DNA of 64,000 bases from Trypanosoma brucei (taxonomy: Eukaryota). This document shows, piece after piece, positions 41,486 to 49,931 of this stretch. The notes beneath the pieces were generated by a model. It searched no databases, had not been told where the DNA came from, and worked only from the letters and a program-made list of their open reading frames with translations. Each line of letters starts with the position of its first letter. Within the stretch, counting starts at the first letter, position 1. The translations under genes and the position numbers were made by a program. Location of the stretch: assembly GCA_000002445.1 (NCBI GenBank), contig CH464491.1, positions 3,424,001-3,488,000 on the forward strand, given 5' to 3'.

Positions 41486-41638
41486 TTCACCAACAATACG
41501 CGGTTAACTCCCATACTTCCCACATCACTGAATCATTTCACTCTAGCCAAAACAAATTTAGCGTACATGTTCAGTCAAACTCCAACACAGGTGTCCTCCC
41601 CGGACGTCCCCACATTTACAACTTCACTGGACATTAAC
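41486..41638 (+). repeat. 155-bp dispersed repeat, copy b, directly abutting inverted-repeat arm A
   Basis: See 29723-29877. Confidence 0.8.
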
Positions 41639-41792
41639 TGATGCCTTGAAAAAAGCAGCAGCGGTGGATGTTTCGGCGAGGCTTTTGCTTGAATCAAATT
41701 CATCGCATGATCCGCTGTGGGATGCAAAAGCCCTAGCCTGTGTAGCCGTCGCCTGTGGGGTGGTTCCTTTTTCGAACCCGCCGGTGCAATGA
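41638..41792 (+). pseudogene. Displaced 3'-terminal fragment (last 51 codons plus stop) of the gene at 49777-51102, copied into arm A
   Basis: The plus strand encodes ...LKKAAAVDVSARLLLESNSSHDPLWDAKALACVAVACGVVPFSNPPVQ* with stop TGA at 41790-41792. This is identical to the C-terminus of the 441-aa minus-strand gene. No upstream coding continuation. Confidence 0.8.
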
Positions 41793-43146
41793 AGGTGTTA
41801 TGTGTGTATTGGGTCTCGGACTGGGTTTCCACACAGAGGGCTCGACACAAAGACATGATGGAAGGAGTCGTTGTGTCTCTGATGATGAATTTGCCTCAAG
41901 TCTTGATTGCGTGGGAAGTTATTAAGATCTGTTGTTTACCCCTTCCGCAAACGGGCCCCTACTATCGCCCCCCAAACGCACCAATGACATTGCCCTGCCG
42001 TGAGTTCTAAAGACGCAACCCCCCTCCCCACGCACACACACACATCCCGCCAGTCTCCCACCGCTGGATCTACCTAATATTAAGAAGCCAACACCAACGC
42101 GCCAACATTGATGCTGCCGGCTGCCACAAAGGTATCAGCGGCCCGTGCACTGCCTGGACGGTGTGACCCAGACGGGAGTGGCACACCTCGTTACTTTTAG
42201 TCTGCGACGAAGTGGCCACAGGGCCAAGACATCCTGGAGCACGCGACGGAAGCATTACGGAACTTGTATCGTCCCTAGAATCCCCTCATAGGTGTATCTA
42301 GAAGCGCTTTCAGCAACCCCATCCAAACTGAAGGGCCATTCTTTGGGGGTTGTGAATTCGGTTGCCACACAGATCAGCGGTATAACCCGACACCTTTCAT
42401 ACCGTATTTTACTGAGTGCGAAACGGTTGCGATGAGGCAGGCTAACGAAAATCGTGATATCGGCACGAGAGCCTTGGACCAGCCTGTGCCGGCGAATCCT
42501 GCCATCAGCTCACGGAGAAGGGGGCGAATAATACACCCTCATGTTTTACACCGTTTGGGTTTAGGCTGTTTCCCCGGTTGCTACGGCACCCCAAATTCTC
42601 TCTGCTTTTCCGCTCTTTCCTGAGAGGGACTGTCCCTGATTACCTCCGTGCTCCAGAACGCAGCACAGTGGAGGTTGCCACCTTCAACTTCTGTATGCAT
42701 TGCCACGTGATGCCTCGCAGACTGCTTGCACACTCCCCTAAGTCAATCTTCCAGCGGCAATGCCATAAAAAGGGCTGCCCTGAGCGCCTACAGCTGCTCC
42801 CCCATTCCCGCGGCACGTTCCATATCTACCTCGGCATTTGGGTGGCCCGTCGGCGCTGCGTTGGCATACGCCCTCGCGCCACTGAACAAGAGCCACTTGG
42901 CGAGTATTGTCGTAGAAGGAAGAGTGCCCGGAGGCGTGCAACAGGGAACTGGCTTCGCACATATTAACCAAGCGGTCAACCACTTTGAAAACGCGTGGAT
43001 AGCATCTATTCCTCCAGTTTTCTTGCGCAATTTCTTTCACTGTATCCCCTCTCGCCCCGCTCTTACTCACTTATTTGAAACTACGTGGCCGCTGCCCGAA
43101 CGGATTTAACGTGCGATTTAGACTTCCACCAACCCATACATGTGAA
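41638..43146 (+). repeat. Inverted-repeat arm A (about 1.5 kb)
   Basis: The reverse complement is found at 46656-47888 (B1), 47989-48982 (B2) and 49487-49931 (B3), with about 99% identity. Confidence 0.9.
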
Positions 43147-44811
43147 GGGCCGGAAACCTGCGCACCATGACCCTTGAAAGGACCTTACTAAAACATGGGG
43201 CACCCTCGCAAGAAGGATTTGGAAGCTCCGCACCTTAATATGTTTTTGCTAACCTGTGGTTCTTTGCCTAATGTTCTCTGGGCGAATGTGCGGCTGCTTC
43301 TAAAGCTCCAGGCTCTTTGTGTTTGCTCATATTCTTCTTACTGAGTTAAAATCGTGGGGGCGAGTGCTCTGGGTCACAACAAGGCTTTTTTTTTGTCTTC
43401 AGGTGCAGCAGTGGGTTCTGGAACTGGCCCCTTAGGCCGCAAGAGACCTAGACGGAATAACGACACTAATGGTTTGTTGCTGGCGATCATTCATCAGGAG
43501 TCAGTGAGATGGGTGTAAGTTTTCATGGCCGCGGTTCTTTGCCCCTTGAGCAAGTCGTTTTATCAGGCTTTCATTGCCGTCAACTTCCGCTATCTGACAG
43601 TTAATTTCCGGAATAACTTGCCTGTTGAGCACTTGTTGCCATGCCACGAAATTGTCGTCGAAGCGGGAGTTTCTATTTTCTCGAAACTTTTGAGAATCGT
43701 GGTTTTACTGAAACGGGGAAAGAACTTGTTCCGCATAACGGTGGTGACCAGCTCGCGCCTTCCGCAAGGTGAGTTGGGATGAACAAGGTTCTTATTTGGT
43801 CGTTCTGTGAGGGATTGTGAAAAAATGGTGTGACTCCTTGTGTGAACCAGAAAGACTTTAGTAGCGGGTGGAGAAGTTGGTTCGTTGTCCTTCCGTCGTG
43901 TTTCCGGTCCGTGTGTTTGAACTCTTTCAACTCTGGTACTTTGGAAGGTCAGGTTTTGCGCTCGGTCACATGGTTTCCGAAGACCATCTACAAAAGGAAA
44001 ACAAGTGGACGAATTCACTGATTTTCACAAACAGTGCAGTGGAGTCAGGTTCCTTCTTTTCCAAGGGGGGGGGATGGCTGCGCCTCTTCGCCTGCGACGT
44101 TGTGCTAGGGAAAAAAAATGACGGATCGGAGCCAGGAGCTTGTTATCATTTGACTTTGCGCGTGGTGCTAGTATGGCCACGGAGAGGCTTGGAGTGGTGT
44201 TGTCGTTATGACATTAGTACAAACTCCATTCATAAAAAATGTTTTTTTTTTCATGAATCGTTTTCTAAAACTCAATCACAAATAATTGGCGACGTGGGTG
44301 AGCCTGTCAAAAATCGAAATCTAAGCCTGCGGACTTTTGAAAGAAGAATAGCAATCCAGCAGTGGTCAAATACAATGACCCCTACCACCCTCGCCTCTTG
44401 GGGACATAGAAACCCTCATGGAGTCGTCCTAAATAAATTCCACGGTCACAGAGGGGCACGGTCGAACCCTTCCTCGCACCCAGAAACCGGAGTTAATCCA
44501 GCTCTTCACCGTCACAGAAAAGGTACATTCTCGGGCGTGTGTTTTTATTCCTGTTCGCCAGTGTCTGATCCATTGGAGTGTACAGGAATTCTTTCTTTGC
44601 ACAGGGATATCCACTTTGAAGGTGATTTTCATTTCCTTCGCCCTCAGTGGTGAGGAAACCGTTTAAGTAAGGCAACTGTTAAGTCGGTGGGAAAAAAGAG
44701 TTTAAATAGAACGTGAAAAGGCACGCCTTTCTCCACACGAAAATGGGAAATATAGACTGCGGGACACCCCTCTCTGAATATCCTCTTCGAGTAAGAAGGG
44801 GGGAACATCCT

Positions 44812-47888: not shown

Positions 47889-47988
47889 NNNNNNNNNNNN
47901 NNNNNNNNNNNNNNNNNNNNNNNNNNNNNNNNNNNNNNNNNNNNNNNNNNNNNNNNNNNNNNNNNNNNNNNNNNNNNNNNNNNNNNNN
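47889..47988. other. Assembly gap (100 N)
   Basis: Run of exactly 100 n characters. Confidence 1.
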
Positions 47989-48982
47989 GTAAGAGCGGGG
48001 CGGGAGGGGATACAGTGAAAGAAATTGCGCAAGAAAACTGGAGGAATAGATGCTGTCCACGCGTTTTCAAAGTGGTTGACCGCTTGGTTAATATGTGCGA
48101 AGCCAGTTCCCTGTTGCACGCCTCCGGGCACTCTTCCTTCTACGACAATACTCGCCAAGTGGCTCTTGTTCAGTGGCGCGAGGGCGTATGCCAACGCAGC
48201 GCCGACGGGCCACCCAAATGCCGAGGTAGATATGGAACGTGCCGCGGGAATGGGGGAGCAGCTGTAGGCGCTCAGGGCAGCCCTTTTTATGGCATTGCCG
48301 CTGGAAGATTGACTTAGGGGAGTGTGCAAGCAGTCTGCGAGGCATCACGTGGCAATGCATACAGAAGTTGAAGGTGGCAACCTCCACTGTGCTGCGTTCT
48401 GGAGCACGGAGGTAATCAGGGACAGTCCCTCTCAGGAAAGAGCGGAAAAGCAGAGAGAATTTGGGGTGCCGTAGCAACCGGGGAAACAGCCTAAACCCAA
48501 ACGGTGTAAAACATGAGGGTGCATTATTCGCCCCCTTCTCCGTGAGCTGATGGCAGGATTCGCCGGCACAGGCTGGTCCAAGGCTCTCGTGCCGATATCA
48601 CGATTTTCGTTAGCCTGCCTCATCGCAACCGTTTCGCACTCAGTAAAATACGGTATGAAAGGTGTCGGGTTATACCGCTGATCTGTGTGGCAACCGAATT
48701 CACAACCCCCAAAGAATGGCCCTTCAGTTTGGATGGGGTTGCTGAAAGCGCTTCTAGATACACCTATGAGGGGATTCTAGGGACGATACAAGTTCCGTAA
48801 TGCTTCCGTCGCGTGCTCCAGGATGTCTTGGCCCTGTGGCCACTTCGTCGCAGACTAAAAGTAACGAGGTGTGCCACTCCCGTCTGGGTCACACCGTCCA
48901 GGCAGTGCACGGGCCGCTGATACCTTTGTGGCAGCCGGCAGCATCAATGTTGGCGCGTTGGTGTTGGCTTCTTAATATTAGG
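47989..48982 (-). repeat. Inverted-repeat arm B2 (inverted copy of arm A about 42082-43075)
   Basis: Identical to B1 with an offset of 1256 bp. It diverges at 48983 into a 505-bp insertion that contains the ~205-bp repeat. Confidence 0.85.
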
Positions 48983-49486
48983 TCCCTGGCGATGCCGGCC
49001 ACCTCAACGTGGTGCCAGGGTCCAGTACCCCGTATCATCGGGGGAAGCCAAGAGCCAGCAGAGTTCCTTTCATGGGGAACACTGCTGTGCTCCGGCTACG
49101 GCATCATACAGCACAGGGATCAGCAGCGTCTTGCTGGGACACCGTTTTTCATTTGTCTGTCCCTGGGCACGTGCCAGCGTGCCATCAGCAGTATCATCCG
49201 CACTAAGATGCTGCTGTCCGGTGATGTGGAACTCCAAAAAAGGATTGCCAATTGGCATCTTTTGGAGAGTCCAGGGTGGGAGGCTTCTCGCCCCATCTGC
49301 TGTATTCCGTTCATATGCGGAAATACAACAAAAATTATAGAGGGTGTGTTAGGATGAATGAAAAAGAGAGACTCTGCCACAGTCGCCAGACCGATAGCAT
49401 CTCAGGGCTCTACGGTGATGGCTGATGGCCGCGCCAGTGGGGGGAAACTCTCACGAAGGCACGAAGAAAATTCTAAAAAAAAAAAA

Positions 49487-49931
49487 TAATATTAGGTAGA
49501 TCCAGCGGTGGGAGACTGGCGGGATGTGTGTGTGTGCGTGGGGAGGGGGGTTGCGTCTTTAGAACTCACGGCAGGGCAATGTCATTGGTGCGTTTGGGGG
49601 GCGATAGTAGGGGCCCGTTTGCGGAAGGGGTAAACAACAGATCTTAATAACTTCCCACGCAATCAAGACTTGAGGCAAATTCATCATTAGAGACACAACG
49701 ACTCCTTCCATCATGTCTTTGTGTCGAGCCCTCTGTGTGGAAACGCAGTCCGAGACCCAATACACACATAACACCTTCATTGCACCGGCGGGTTCGAAAA
49801 AGGAACCACCCCACAGGCGACGGCTACACAGGCTAGGGCTTTTGCATCCCACAGCGGATCATGCGATGAATTTGATTCAAGCAAAAGCCTCGCCGAAACA
49901 TCCACCGCTGCTGCTTTTTTCAAGGCATCAG
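49487..49931 (-). repeat. Inverted-repeat arm B3 (inverted copy of arm A 41638-42082), overlapping the 3' end of the CDS at 49777-51102
   Basis: Reverse-complement identity with arm A. Coordinates map as xA + xB = 91569. Confidence 0.9.

What the first reader, a model, noticed from the sequence alone, without database searches (positions are those of the whole stretch)
41638..49931. About 1.5-kb inverted repeat bracketing a 3.5-kb spacer that holds a tRNA-Ala/Arg/Phe cluster, between two same-strand Pol II genes
Arm A (41638-43146) reappears as a reverse complement on the right side, and the two arms enclose the unique segment 43147-46655, which carries all three tRNA genes. The right arm is not clean. 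It is split by a 505-bp insertion (B2 then B3), preceded by a partial tandem extra copy (B1), and sits next to the scaffold gap. The arms are about 99% identical, so they are recent or homogenised. A kb-scale inverted repeat around Pol III genes inside a unidirectional trypanosome polycistron is not a standard feature. It could support flip-flop inversion of the tRNA spacer, cruciform or hairpin formation, or act as a transcription boundary.
Basis: seen in the sequence. Interest (0 to 1): 0.65.

Follow-up and report, generated by a model that had tools for sequence, protein, structure and literature searches.

The report
Inverted repeat flanking inverted tRNA cluster
A real 1.5-kb inverted duplication on Trypanosoma brucei chromosome 11 brackets a tRNA cluster that has been flipped relative to other trypanosomes. 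Its two arms are kept near-identical by gene conversion, and the untidy right arm is a recent retroposon insertion plus an assembly gap artefact.

Summary
The window is T. brucei TREU927 chromosome 11 (Tb927_11_01_v4 3,424,001-3,488,000).

- **The repeat is real.** The left arm is 41632-43157. The right arm is 46642-47888 and 47989-49937. The spacer is 3.5 kb and carries tRNA-Ala, tRNA-Arg and tRNA-Phe.
- **Two independent assemblies show a clean version.** T. b. gambiense and T. b. equiperdum each have a single 1.52-kb repeat, with no gap, no insertion and no extra copy.
- **The messy right arm has two causes.** One is a 503-bp RIME-like retroposon with a poly(A) tail and an 11-bp target duplication. 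The other is two redundant contig ends on either side of the 100-N gap.
- **The spacer is inverted.** In T. theileri, T. cruzi, T. vivax and one unidentified trypanosome the tRNA cluster has the opposite orientation and no repeat flanks it. The repeat therefore marks a lineage-specific inversion.
- **The arms evolve in concert.** At 30 sites both TREU927 arms differ from all four arms of the other two genomes, against 0-8 differences within a genome. This shows gene conversion.
- **It is a transcription boundary.** Published data place Pol II re-initiation "next to tRNA" here.
- **It belongs to a known class.** Long near-identical inverted repeats are known in T. brucei and yield siRNAs, but this one is not among the seven listed.

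Interest is moderate.

The parts
40651..41376 (-). UEV + RING-finger protein gene (241 aa). It is the first ORF of the downstream Pol II unit, probably Tb11.01.4703.
   Evidence: Pfam UEV and zf-C3HC4_3 hits. A 241-aa orthologue is called in L001, L002 and L014. Kolev Table S14 lists the unit Tb11.01.4703->4701 as 'next to tRNA'. The gene-ID assignment is my inference from gene order.
41483..41638 (.). 156-bp block, 95.5% identical in direct orientation to 29721-29876. It ends exactly at the outer edge of arm A.
41632..43157 (.). Left arm A, distal to the 441-aa gene. It is the derived, inverted copy of that gene's 3' end plus ~1.36 kb of its downstream sequence.
41634..41792 (+). Orphan copy, inside arm A, of the last 52 codons plus the stop codon of the 441-aa gene.
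   Evidence: Translation, frame 2: LTDALKKAAAVDV...SNPPVQ*
43158..46641 (.). Unique spacer. It is inverted relative to T. theileri, T. cruzi, T. vivax and an unidentified trypanosome.
43970..44653 (+). Annotated hypothetical ORF Tb11.01.4710, probably not a gene.
   Evidence: Kolev 2010 Table S2 lists it at v4 3467970-3468653 with no detectable transcript. No Pfam hit.
44809..45008 (+). 200-nt 5' fragment of an ingi/RIME-type retroposon, 92% identical to the 5' end of the RIME copy at 48984.
45847..45918 (-). tRNA-Ala (CGC), Tb11_tRNA_Ala_1
45984..46057 (-). tRNA-Arg (CCG), Tb11_tRNA_Arg_1
46168..46240 (+). tRNA-Phe (GAA), Tb11_tRNA_Phe_2
46162..46655 (+). tRNA-Phe gene plus ~415 bp downstream. 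It is 99.8-100% identical, in direct orientation, to 28351-28844 in the other tRNA cluster. It ends at the inner edge of the right arm.
46642..47888 (.). Right arm, piece B1, at the end of the left contig. It has an empty RIME target site. It shares the three right-arm-specific bases with B2.
47889..47988 (.). Scaffold gap of 100 N.
47989..48983 (.). Right arm, piece B2, at the start of the right contig. It is 100% identical to B1 46733-47727. Its last 11 bp (48973-48983) are target-site duplication copy 1.
48984..49486 (+). 503-bp RIME-like non-LTR retroposon. It starts CCCTGGCGATGCCGG and ends in A12 (49475-49486). It is antisense to the Pol II unit and lies 291 bp downstream of the 441-aa gene's stop codon.
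   Evidence: It is absent from arm A, B1, L001, L002 and L003-L005.
49487..49937 (.). Right arm, piece B3. It is continuous with the 441-aa coding sequence. Its first 11 bp (49487-49497) are target-site duplication copy 2.
49777..51102 (-). 441-aa conserved hypothetical gene (EAN80262 / XP_829374), the last ORF of the upstream Pol II unit and probably Tb11.01.4720. Its last ~160 nt lie inside the repeat.
   Evidence: The gene-ID assignment is my inference from gene order.

Best explanation
This is a genuine inverted segmental duplication specific to the T. brucei lineage, with arms of about 1.52 kb. It marks the two ends of an evolutionary inversion of the 3.5-kb segment that carries tRNA-Ala, tRNA-Arg and tRNA-Phe.

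The arm next to the 441-aa gene is the original. It is continuous with that gene's coding sequence and includes its last 160 nt plus about 1.36 kb of downstream sequence. The arm next to the UEV/RING gene is the inverted copy.

The structure 'original arm, inverted segment, inverted arm' has two possible origins (inferred). It could come from an inversion made with staggered breaks or fold-back repair, which duplicates one breakpoint region. Equally, it could come from an inverted duplication followed by recombination between the arms. The data do not separate these.

Since then the arms have been kept almost identical by intrachromosomal gene conversion (shown).

In TREU927 a RIME retroposon recently inserted into the gene-proximal arm (shown). 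The reference assembly broke there. B1 (empty site) and B2-RIME-B3 (filled site) are overlapping contig ends of one and the same arm. Either they are two alleles, or B1's last 161 bp were extended with left-arm reads (inferred).

The locus lies at a head-to-tail boundary between two minus-strand Pol II transcription units. Termination and re-initiation there are attributable to the tRNA genes, as at other such loci.

The likely consequence of the repeat itself is double-stranded RNA. This would form either as a 1.5-kb hairpin on read-through transcripts or as antisense to the 3' end of the 441-aa gene's mRNA made from the downstream unit. That would make this locus a further siRNA source like the seven published T. 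brucei long inverted repeats (inferred, untested).
For: - **Organism and position.** The window is T. brucei TREU927 chromosome 11. The offset to Tb927_11_01_v4 is 3,424,000, fixed by published tRNA coordinates and by Tb11.01.4710.
- **Repeat anatomy.**
- **Clean repeat elsewhere.** T. b. gambiense (L001) and T. b. equiperdum (L002) each have one clean repeat: arms about 1.52 kb, spacer about 3.63 kb, no N, no RIME, no tandem piece. A T. equiperdum-type short-read contig (L014) ends about 31 bp inside the arm edge.
- **Inversion.** With the 441-aa gene on the plus strand, the order downstream is Ala(-) Arg(-) Phe(+) in T. theileri and T. cruzi, and Ala(-) Arg(-) in T. vivax and an unidentified trypanosome. 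It is Phe(-) Arg(+) Ala(+) in the three T. brucei genomes. The spacing inside the cluster is conserved. In T. theileri the UEV gene follows on the same strand, as in T. brucei. The three outgroup loci scanned for repeats (T. vivax, T. cruzi, T. theileri) have no flanking inverted repeat.
- **Original versus copy.** The outer edge is sharp. The right arm runs on into the coding sequence, while the left arm carries only a 52-codon orphan fragment.
- **Concerted evolution.** At 30 sites both TREU927 arms differ from all four arms of the other two genomes. At one site both gambiense arms differ from both equiperdum arms. Within-genome substitutions number 8, 0 and 0.
- **RIME.** It is 503 bp with an A12 tail and a perfect 11-bp duplication, TAATATTAGGT. 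The empty site is seen in arm A, B1 and all other strains. The upstream sequence partly matches the ingi/RIME target motif. The published 12-bp duplication and motif are in PMC3820030.
- **B1 and B2 are the same arm.** They are 100% identical over 995 bp and share all three right-arm-specific bases. Both contig ends fall where repeat-induced read conflicts are expected: 91 bp inside the inner arm edge, and 161 bp past the RIME site.
- **Boundary.** Kolev 2010 Table S14 lists Tb11.01.5280->4720, then Tb11.01.4703->4701 'next to tRNA'. Searches give general statements that tRNA genes stop Pol II and that initiation follows them.
- **Known class.** Tschudi 2012 describes long near-identical inverted repeats that yield siRNAs. 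Reynolds 2016 links them to H3.V.
Against: - No TREU927 reads were available. A real, strain-specific tandem partial duplication of the right arm therefore cannot be formally excluded.
- The 161 bp of B1 beyond the RIME site contain no bases that distinguish left-arm from right-arm origin.
- The two origin models (inversion that duplicates a breakpoint, versus a pre-existing repeat that mediates a flip) predict the same final structure and are not distinguished.
- T. congolense, the closest outgroup, could not be examined. The event is dated only to after the split from T. vivax.
- No small-RNA, chromatin or transcript data for this locus could be consulted, so double-stranded RNA and siRNA production is an extrapolation. 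Termination at the tRNA genes may prevent a hairpin forming in cis.
- The survey by Tschudi et al. did not list this repeat, although its authors say they searched systematically and found small RNAs at every repeat they listed.
Confidence: 0.8

Rival explanations
1. The inverted repeat is an assembly chimera created around the N gap of the TREU927 reference. In reality there is one non-inverted copy.
For: A 100-N gap lies inside the right side, and the two contig ends next to it are redundant.
Against: - The left arm and B1 lie on one contig together with the whole spacer, so that contig alone already contains a 1.24-kb inverted repeat.
- T. b. gambiense DAL972 and T. b. equiperdum, both gap-free here, show the same repeat with the same boundaries.
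- The arms carry arm-specific and strain-specific substitutions.
Confidence: 0.02
2. The repeat is an active flip-flop switch. Recombination between the arms inverts the tRNA spacer repeatedly, so both orientations coexist in populations. This could change how Pol III genes face incoming Pol II.
For: - The spacer has inverted at least once relative to other trypanosomes.
- The arms exchange sequence frequently, and some such exchanges could resolve as crossovers.
- The orientation of Pol III genes is reported to influence Pol II read-through in Leishmania (PMC4150806).
Against: - All three T. brucei-group assemblies have the same orientation.
- In either orientation the cluster has tRNA genes on both strands, so a functional difference is not obvious.
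- Short-read contigs cannot report orientation, because the arm/spacer junction sequences are the same in both states.
Confidence: 0.12
3. TREU927 really carries a partial tandem triplication: two right-arm copies, one empty and one with RIME, in tandem opposite one left arm.
For: The reference places B1 and B2-RIME-B3 in tandem. B1 has the empty site and B2/B3 the filled site, so they are not literally the same sequence.
Against: - The two pieces are separated only by a conventional 100-N gap.
- They are 100% identical over 995 bp.
- Contig ends lie where repeat or allele conflicts are expected.
- No tandem copy exists in two related genomes.
- A heterozygous RIME insertion explains the data more simply.
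Confidence: 0.08
4. The repeat is maintained by selection as a natural hairpin RNAi trigger or chromatin element. In this reading its double-stranded RNA regulates the 441-aa gene, or helps define the termination zone. The near-identity would reflect function rather than neutral gene conversion.
For: - All seven published T. brucei long inverted repeats give TbAGO1-bound small RNAs. Their authors suggested selective pressure for identity.
- siRNA loci are H3.V-marked.
- The arms include the coding-sequence end and 3' region of a gene, and both lie on the Pol II-transcribed strand path.
- The repeat is conserved in three T. brucei subspecies.
Against: - No expression or small-RNA data were available for this locus.
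- Gene conversion alone explains the identity.
- The repeat is absent from the three other trypanosome loci scanned for repeats, although all of them keep the same gene and tRNA cluster.
- The RIME insertion into one arm is tolerated.
- The locus is absent from the published list of siRNA-producing repeats.
Confidence: 0.25

Closest known systems
Long inverted repeats IR1-IR7 of T. brucei (Tschudi et al. 2012, BMC Genomics 13:427)
   Same: Same organism and genome. Kilobase-scale arms (the published ones are 0.4-10 kb), 99-100% arm identity, and a few-kb spacer. The published repeats were verified as real in another strain, as this one is here in two other subspecies.
   Different: This locus is not in their table. 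Their only chromosome 11 entry, IR7, is at v4 4,219,000-4,231,000 with 1,814-bp arms, about 750 kb away. siRNA production is shown for IR1-IR7 and is untested here. The published work did not report an associated inversion or cross-strain concerted evolution.
Chromosomal inversions flanked by inverted duplications of a breakpoint region (the staggered-break model described for Drosophila inversions; cited from my own knowledge)
   Same: A segment is inverted relative to outgroups. An inverted duplicate of one breakpoint region lies at each end. One copy is continuous with the ancestral flank and the other is an orphan fragment that includes a truncated gene end.
   Different: The arms here are long (1.5 kb) and have been homogenised afterwards. 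The mechanism is inferred from structure only. An origin by recombination between pre-existing arms is equally compatible.
Head-to-tail Pol II transcription-unit boundaries at tRNA genes in trypanosomatids (Kolev 2010; Padilla-Mejia 2009; Siegel 2009 as cited in those papers)
   Same: tRNA genes lie between same-strand gene arrays. The downstream unit is experimentally listed as starting 'next to tRNA'.
   Different: Such boundaries do not normally carry a kilobase-scale inverted repeat. The second tRNA cluster in this same window (28094-28429) has none.
Large palindromes and inverted repeats with arm-to-arm gene conversion (human Y-chromosome palindromes, plastid inverted repeats; cited from my own knowledge)
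   Same: Divergence between the arms of one genome is far below divergence between the same arms in different genomes. There is potential for spacer inversion by crossover.
   Different: The scale is much smaller. The arms carry no complete genes. No isomer mixture has been shown.
RIME, the 0.5-kb non-autonomous ingi-clade retroposon of T. brucei
   Same: The 503-bp insertion has a poly(A) tail, an 11-12-bp target-site duplication, a partial ingi4 target motif, and an ingi-type 5' end shared with another fragment in the window.
   Different: No reference RIME sequence could be aligned with the tools available. The match of the 5' signature rests on my memory and on the in-window paralogue.

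Membership tests
T. brucei long inverted repeats that yield siRNAs (Tschudi 2012) | Arms of at least ~0.4 kb, at least 99% identical, in inverted orientation a few kb apart | tested here: met
   Arms about 1.52 kb, 99.4-99.7% identical in TREU927 and ~100% in L001 and L002, with a 3.5-3.6-kb spacer.
T. brucei long inverted repeats that yield siRNAs (Tschudi 2012) | Not an assembly artefact; present in independent strains | tested here: met
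   Clean repeat in T. b. gambiense and T. b. equiperdum.
T. brucei long inverted repeats that yield siRNAs (Tschudi 2012) | Is one of the seven listed loci | tested here: not met
   The window equals v4 3,424,001-3,488,000. The only chromosome 11 entry, IR7, is at 4,219,000-4,231,000.
T. brucei long inverted repeats that yield siRNAs (Tschudi 2012) | Source of 22-25-nt TbAGO1-bound, Dicer-dependent small RNAs; H3.V enrichment | not testable with these tools
   No read or ChIP data were accessible. The supplementary tables give no coordinates for the 'miscellaneous' chromosome 11 loci.
RIME retroposon (ingi clade) | About 500 bp, non-coding, with a 3' poly(dA) tail | tested here: met
   503 bp ending in A12; no Pfam hit for the ORF across it.
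RIME retroposon (ingi clade) | 12-bp target-site duplication and a matching empty site | tested here: met
   TAATATTAGGT is duplicated (11 bp perfect; the 12th base is ambiguous because it abuts the A tail). The empty site is seen in arm A, B1, L001, L002 and L003-L005. The 12-bp rule is from PMC3820030.
RIME retroposon (ingi clade) | 76-79-nt ingi-clade 5' signature | tested here: inconclusive
   The 5' 200 nt are 92% identical to a second ingi-like fragment at 44809-45008. The start CCCTGGCGATGCCGGCCACC matches my recollection of the signature, but no reference sequence was available. Rfam gave no ribozyme hit.
RIME retroposon (ingi clade) | ingi4 target motif AxxxxxxxTxxxGTxGGxTxxx upstream of the nick | tested here: inconclusive
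   TxxxGTxGGxTxxx matches (TGGTGTTGGCTTCT), but the distal A does not.
Head-to-tail Pol II unit boundary at Pol III genes | tRNA genes between Pol II genes on the same strand | tested here: met
Head-to-tail Pol II unit boundary at Pol III genes | Mapped Pol II re-initiation downstream of the tRNA genes | tested here: met
   From the literature only: Kolev 2010 Table S14 lists Tb11.01.4703->4701 '- next to tRNA'.
Head-to-tail Pol II unit boundary at Pol III genes | Termination marks (H3.V, H4.V, base J) followed by initiation marks (H2A.Z, H4K10ac) | not testable with these tools
   No ChIP tracks were available.
Inversion flanked by inverted duplication | Segment inverted relative to several outgroups while both flanks keep their orientation | tested here: met
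   The tRNA order and strand are reversed compared with T. theileri, T. cruzi, T. vivax and L013. In T. theileri the UEV gene is on the same strand as in T. brucei.
Inversion flanked by inverted duplication | Repeat arms lie exactly at the ends of the inverted segment, and the repeat is absent in outgroups | tested here: met
   (T. vivax, T. cruzi and T. theileri loci were scanned for repeats)
Inversion flanked by inverted duplication | Both orientations coexist (required only for the flip-flop reading) | tested here: inconclusive
   Three of three assemblies have the same orientation. Short-read contigs are uninformative.
Inverted-repeat arms under concerted evolution | Divergence between arms within a genome is far below divergence of the same arms between genomes, with shared substitutions in both arms | tested here: met
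   31 concerted sites against 8, 0 and 0 within-genome differences.

The most novel reading that the evidence does not exclude
The repeat may be more than a scar of an old inversion. It could be a working element: an unlisted eighth hairpin siRNA locus whose double-stranded RNA targets the 3' end of the last gene of the upstream transcription unit. Alternatively, or in addition, it could be a recombination switch that still flips a Pol III gene cluster at a Pol II termination and re-initiation site, with arm identity maintained by selection.
Probability: 0.15. Interest if true: 0.65.

Novelty: new member of a known kind. Interest (0 to 1): 0.4.

Why it matters
- **Annotation.** The reference structure at Tb927 chromosome 11, about 3.466-3.474 Mb in v4, is partly artefactual. 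The true locus is most probably one clean inverted repeat with a RIME insertion in one arm, possibly heterozygous.
- **Biology.** The locus adds an unlisted case to the very small set of long, near-identical inverted repeats in T. brucei. The high identity of those repeats was described as a curiosity.
- **What this case adds.** Comparison across subspecies shows directly that the identity comes from ongoing arm-to-arm gene conversion. Comparison with outgroups ties the repeat to a specific inversion of a tRNA cluster at a transcription-unit boundary.
- **Experimental use.** The locus offers a defined place to test whether such repeats produce siRNAs, flip, or influence Pol II termination.

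Tried and rejected
- **Identity with IR7.** I first suspected this was Tschudi's Tb927_11_IR7, because the distance from the right chromosome end seemed to fit. I rejected this once the window offset was fixed by published tRNA coordinates and by Tb11.01.4710. The convergent-unit list agrees with the 3.47-Mb position.
- **Exact-protein look-ups.** Look-ups for the TREU927 441-aa protein and for the ORF across the B2/RIME junction found nothing. RIME presence in other TREU927-derived assemblies therefore could not be tested.
- **T. congolense.** It did not appear in either protein search, so the event could not be dated more finely.
- **Spacer content.** Pfam on spacer and junction ORFs gave nothing, and the list of spacer ORFs showed nothing resembling a reverse transcriptase or endonuclease. 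Apart from the 200-nt ingi-like 5' fragment, the spacer looks non-coding.
- **Non-coding RNAs.** Rfam at E <= 0.01 over 40-51.5 kb found only the three tRNAs.
- **GT-rich promoter element.** A strand-specific G+T profile showed no convincing GT-rich tract in the arms, so I dropped that idea.
- **Nested direct repeats.** I tried to explain why the two blocks shared with the other tRNA cluster end exactly at the arm edges, and why four direct-repeat pairs in the window are nested. I found no satisfying model and this remains unexplained.
- **RIME target motif.** The full ingi4 upstream motif did not match; only its proximal 14 positions did.

Full report
**Identity of the window.** The 441-aa ORF at 49777-51102 (-) is 100% identical to a conserved hypothetical protein of Trypanosoma brucei brucei TREU927, encoded on a 5.26-Mb contig. 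All large ORFs in the window are on the minus strand. Published coordinates fix the position. Padilla-Mejia et al. 2009 place Tb11_tRNA_Ala_1 at 3469847-3469918 and Phe_2 at 3470168-3470240. Kolev et al. 2010 place Tb11.01.4710 at 3467970-3468653 of Tb927_11_01_v4. Both give window position = v4 position minus 3,424,000. The feature is therefore at chromosome 11 v4 3,465,632-3,473,937.

**Checking the observation.**
- Arm A is 41632-43157.
- B1 is 46642-47888, the reverse complement of 41910-43150 at 99.4% over 1241 bp.
- A 100-N gap lies at 47889-47988.
- B2 is 47989-48983. It is 100% identical to B1 46733-47727 and 99.7% identical to the reverse complement of 42072-43066.
- A 503-bp insertion lies at 48984-49486.
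- B3 is 49487-49937, the reverse complement of 41632-42082.
- The spacer holds tRNA-Ala(cgc) on the minus strand, tRNA-Arg(ccg) on the minus strand and tRNA-Phe(gaa) on the plus strand.

One correction is needed. The arms begin 160 nt inside the 441-aa coding sequence. The outer edge is sharp, and arm A carries an orphan copy of the last 52 codons plus the stop codon.

**The untidy right arm.** The insertion begins CCCTGGCGATGCCGG and ends in A12. It is flanked by a perfect 11-bp duplication, TAATATTAGGT. The uninterrupted target is present in arm A and in B1. Its first 200 nt are 92% identical to a second ingi-like fragment in the spacer at 44809-45008. The sequence just upstream matches the proximal part of the published Tbingi/TbRIME target motif. 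It is therefore a RIME-type retroposon. It lies antisense to the transcription unit, 291 bp downstream of the stop codon.

B1 and B2 are identical over 995 bp. They share all three bases that distinguish the right arm from arm A. The right-hand contig starts only 91 bp inside the inner arm edge, and the left-hand contig stops 161 bp past the RIME site. Those are the places where repeat or allele conflicts break an assembly. I conclude that B1 and B2-RIME-B3 are overlapping ends of one arm. Either they are an empty and a filled allele, or B1 was extended with arm-A reads. I do not think B1 is a true extra copy, but this is inferred and not shown.

**Independent genomes.** The orthologous loci of T. 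b. gambiense DAL972 (L001) and T. b. equiperdum (L002; named) contain no N in this region. Each has one clean inverted repeat with arms of about 1.52 kb and a spacer of about 3.63 kb. Neither has the RIME or a tandem piece. Short-read contigs of other T. brucei-type strains run through the empty RIME site. One contig of another assembly (GCA_001457755.2, L014) ends about 31 bp inside the outer arm edge. The repeat is therefore genuine and shared by the T. brucei group, and the chimera explanation is refuted.

**Comparison with other trypanosomes.** Take the 441-aa gene as lying on the plus strand. The downstream order is Ala(-) Arg(-) Phe(+) in T. theileri and T. cruzi. It is Ala(-) Arg(-) in T. 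vivax and in an unidentified trypanosome (Logan SRR16767846). The spacing inside the cluster is nearly the same throughout. In the three loci scanned for repeats (T. vivax, T. cruzi, T. theileri) no inverted repeat flanks the cluster. In T. theileri the UEV/RING gene follows on the same strand, as in T. brucei. In all three T. brucei genomes the cluster reads Phe(-) Arg(+) Ala(+). The segment between the arms has therefore been inverted in the T. brucei lineage, and the arms lie exactly at its ends. The gene-proximal arm is continuous with the coding sequence, so the distal arm A is the derived copy.

This layout fits an inversion that duplicated one breakpoint region through staggered breaks or fold-back repair. 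It fits equally well an inverted duplication followed by crossover between the arms. The data do not separate these models.

**Homogenisation.** I aligned the six arms, two from each of the three genomes. At 30 sites both TREU927 arms share one base and all four gambiense and equiperdum arms share another. At one site both gambiense arms differ from both equiperdum arms. Arms within a genome differ at only 8, 0 and 0 substitution sites. Because the boundaries are shared, the duplication predates the divergence of these haplotypes. Shared changes in both arms therefore require repeated arm-to-arm gene conversion.

**Transcriptional context.** Kolev et al. 2010 mapped Pol II units using RNA-seq enriched for 5'-triphosphate ends. 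On chromosome 11 they list the unit Tb11.01.5280->4720 (minus strand). It is followed by Tb11.01.4703->4701 (minus strand, 'next to tRNA') and then Tb11.01.4700->4570 (minus strand, 'next to tRNA'). This matches the two tRNA clusters in the window. MBAP1, which is Tb11.01.4701, corresponds to the histidine-phosphatase ORF at 33035-34609. The locus is thus a head-to-tail boundary. That is the usual behaviour of tRNA loci in trypanosomatids. The other tRNA cluster in the window has no inverted repeat, so the boundary function is not shown to need the repeat.

**Relation to what is known.** Tschudi et al. 2012 surveyed TREU927 for large inverted repeats. They found seven (0.4-10 kb, 99-100% identical), and all yielded TbAGO1-bound small RNAs. 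They remarked that the identity was a curiosity. Reynolds et al. 2016 showed that loss of H3.V increases siRNAs from these loci. Their only chromosome 11 entry, IR7, lies at v4 4.219-4.231 Mb. That is about 750 kb from this locus, so this repeat is not in the list. Possible reasons are the gap, or few small RNAs; I could not determine which.

By analogy, both arms lie along the path of minus-strand Pol II transcription. Read-through would give a 1.5-kb hairpin. Otherwise the downstream unit would produce RNA antisense to the last 160 nt of the coding sequence and the 3' region of the 441-aa gene. Production of siRNAs is therefore plausible but untested.

**Verdict.**
- The repeat is real, its arms are homogenised, and it lies at a transcription boundary.
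- An inversion did occur in evolution.
- The extra copy is most probably an artefact, and the insertion is a RIME.
- No ongoing flip-flop is seen, and the class of element is already described.

I rate this a new member of a known kind. The added value is a documented inversion and direct evidence for concerted evolution. Interest is about 0.4.

Noticed in passing
window 12196-13749 and 54593-56148: Two copies of the elongation factor 1-gamma gene (ORFs 12368-13780 and 54765-56408), 42 kb apart in direct orientation and 99.8% identical over 1556 bp. This suggests gene conversion between dispersed paralogues.
   Followed up: partly
window 28351-28844 and 46162-46655: tRNA-Phe plus ~415 bp downstream is duplicated at 99.8-100% identity between the His/Glu/Phe cluster (28094-28429) and the Ala/Arg/Phe cluster. 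The right-hand copy ends exactly at the inner edge of the right arm. Before the spacer inversion the two copies would have been in inverted orientation, flanking the ~17-kb UEV-MBAP block.
   Followed up: partly
window 29721-29876 and 41483-41638: A 156-bp block, 95.5% identical in direct orientation. The right-hand copy ends exactly at the outer edge of arm A. I cannot explain why both blocks shared with the other tRNA cluster stop at the arm edges.
   Followed up: partly
window 30037-31367 and 35487-36817: A 1331-bp direct repeat, 100% identical, on either side of the membrane-bound acid phosphatase (MBAP1-like) ORF at 33035-34609. A (CA)41 microsatellite lies at 31345-31427, at the end of the left copy.
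   Followed up: no
window 12-56 kb: The four direct-repeat pairs listed above are fully nested: a b c d ... d c b a in order, yet all in direct orientation. By my own count only one of the 105 possible pairings of eight positions is fully nested, so chance seems unlikely. I have no mechanism to propose.
   Followed up: no
window 654-3671: A tandem array with a period of about 840 bp encodes calmodulin on the minus strand ([17 protein letters not shown]...). The copies are 98.8-99.5% identical.
   Followed up: partly
L008 (T. vivax) 11692-16626: In T. vivax the block HisPhos / GARP / UEV-RING lies on the opposite strand to the 441-aa gene, directly after tRNA-Ala and tRNA-Arg, and no tRNA-Phe was found. 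So a larger inversion with a breakpoint at the same tRNA cluster exists in that lineage, which suggests this cluster is a recurrent rearrangement breakpoint.
   Followed up: partly
window ~46245-46259 vs L001 13089-13227: T. b. gambiense and T. b. equiperdum have about 138 bp more than TREU927 immediately next to tRNA-Phe. In TREU927 this stretch is the part that is identical to the other Phe cluster.
   Followed up: no
window 43970-44653 (+): The annotated ORF Tb11.01.4710 lies on the non-transcribed strand inside the spacer. It is listed as having no detectable transcript (Kolev 2010 Table S2) and is probably a spurious gene model.
   Followed up: yes
PMC3447711 Additional file 5: The file lists several 'miscellaneous' DCL2-dependent small-RNA loci on Tb927_11_01_v4 (DNK13TUD, DNK14TUD, TUD5 and others) without coordinates. 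One of them could be this locus.
   Followed up: no
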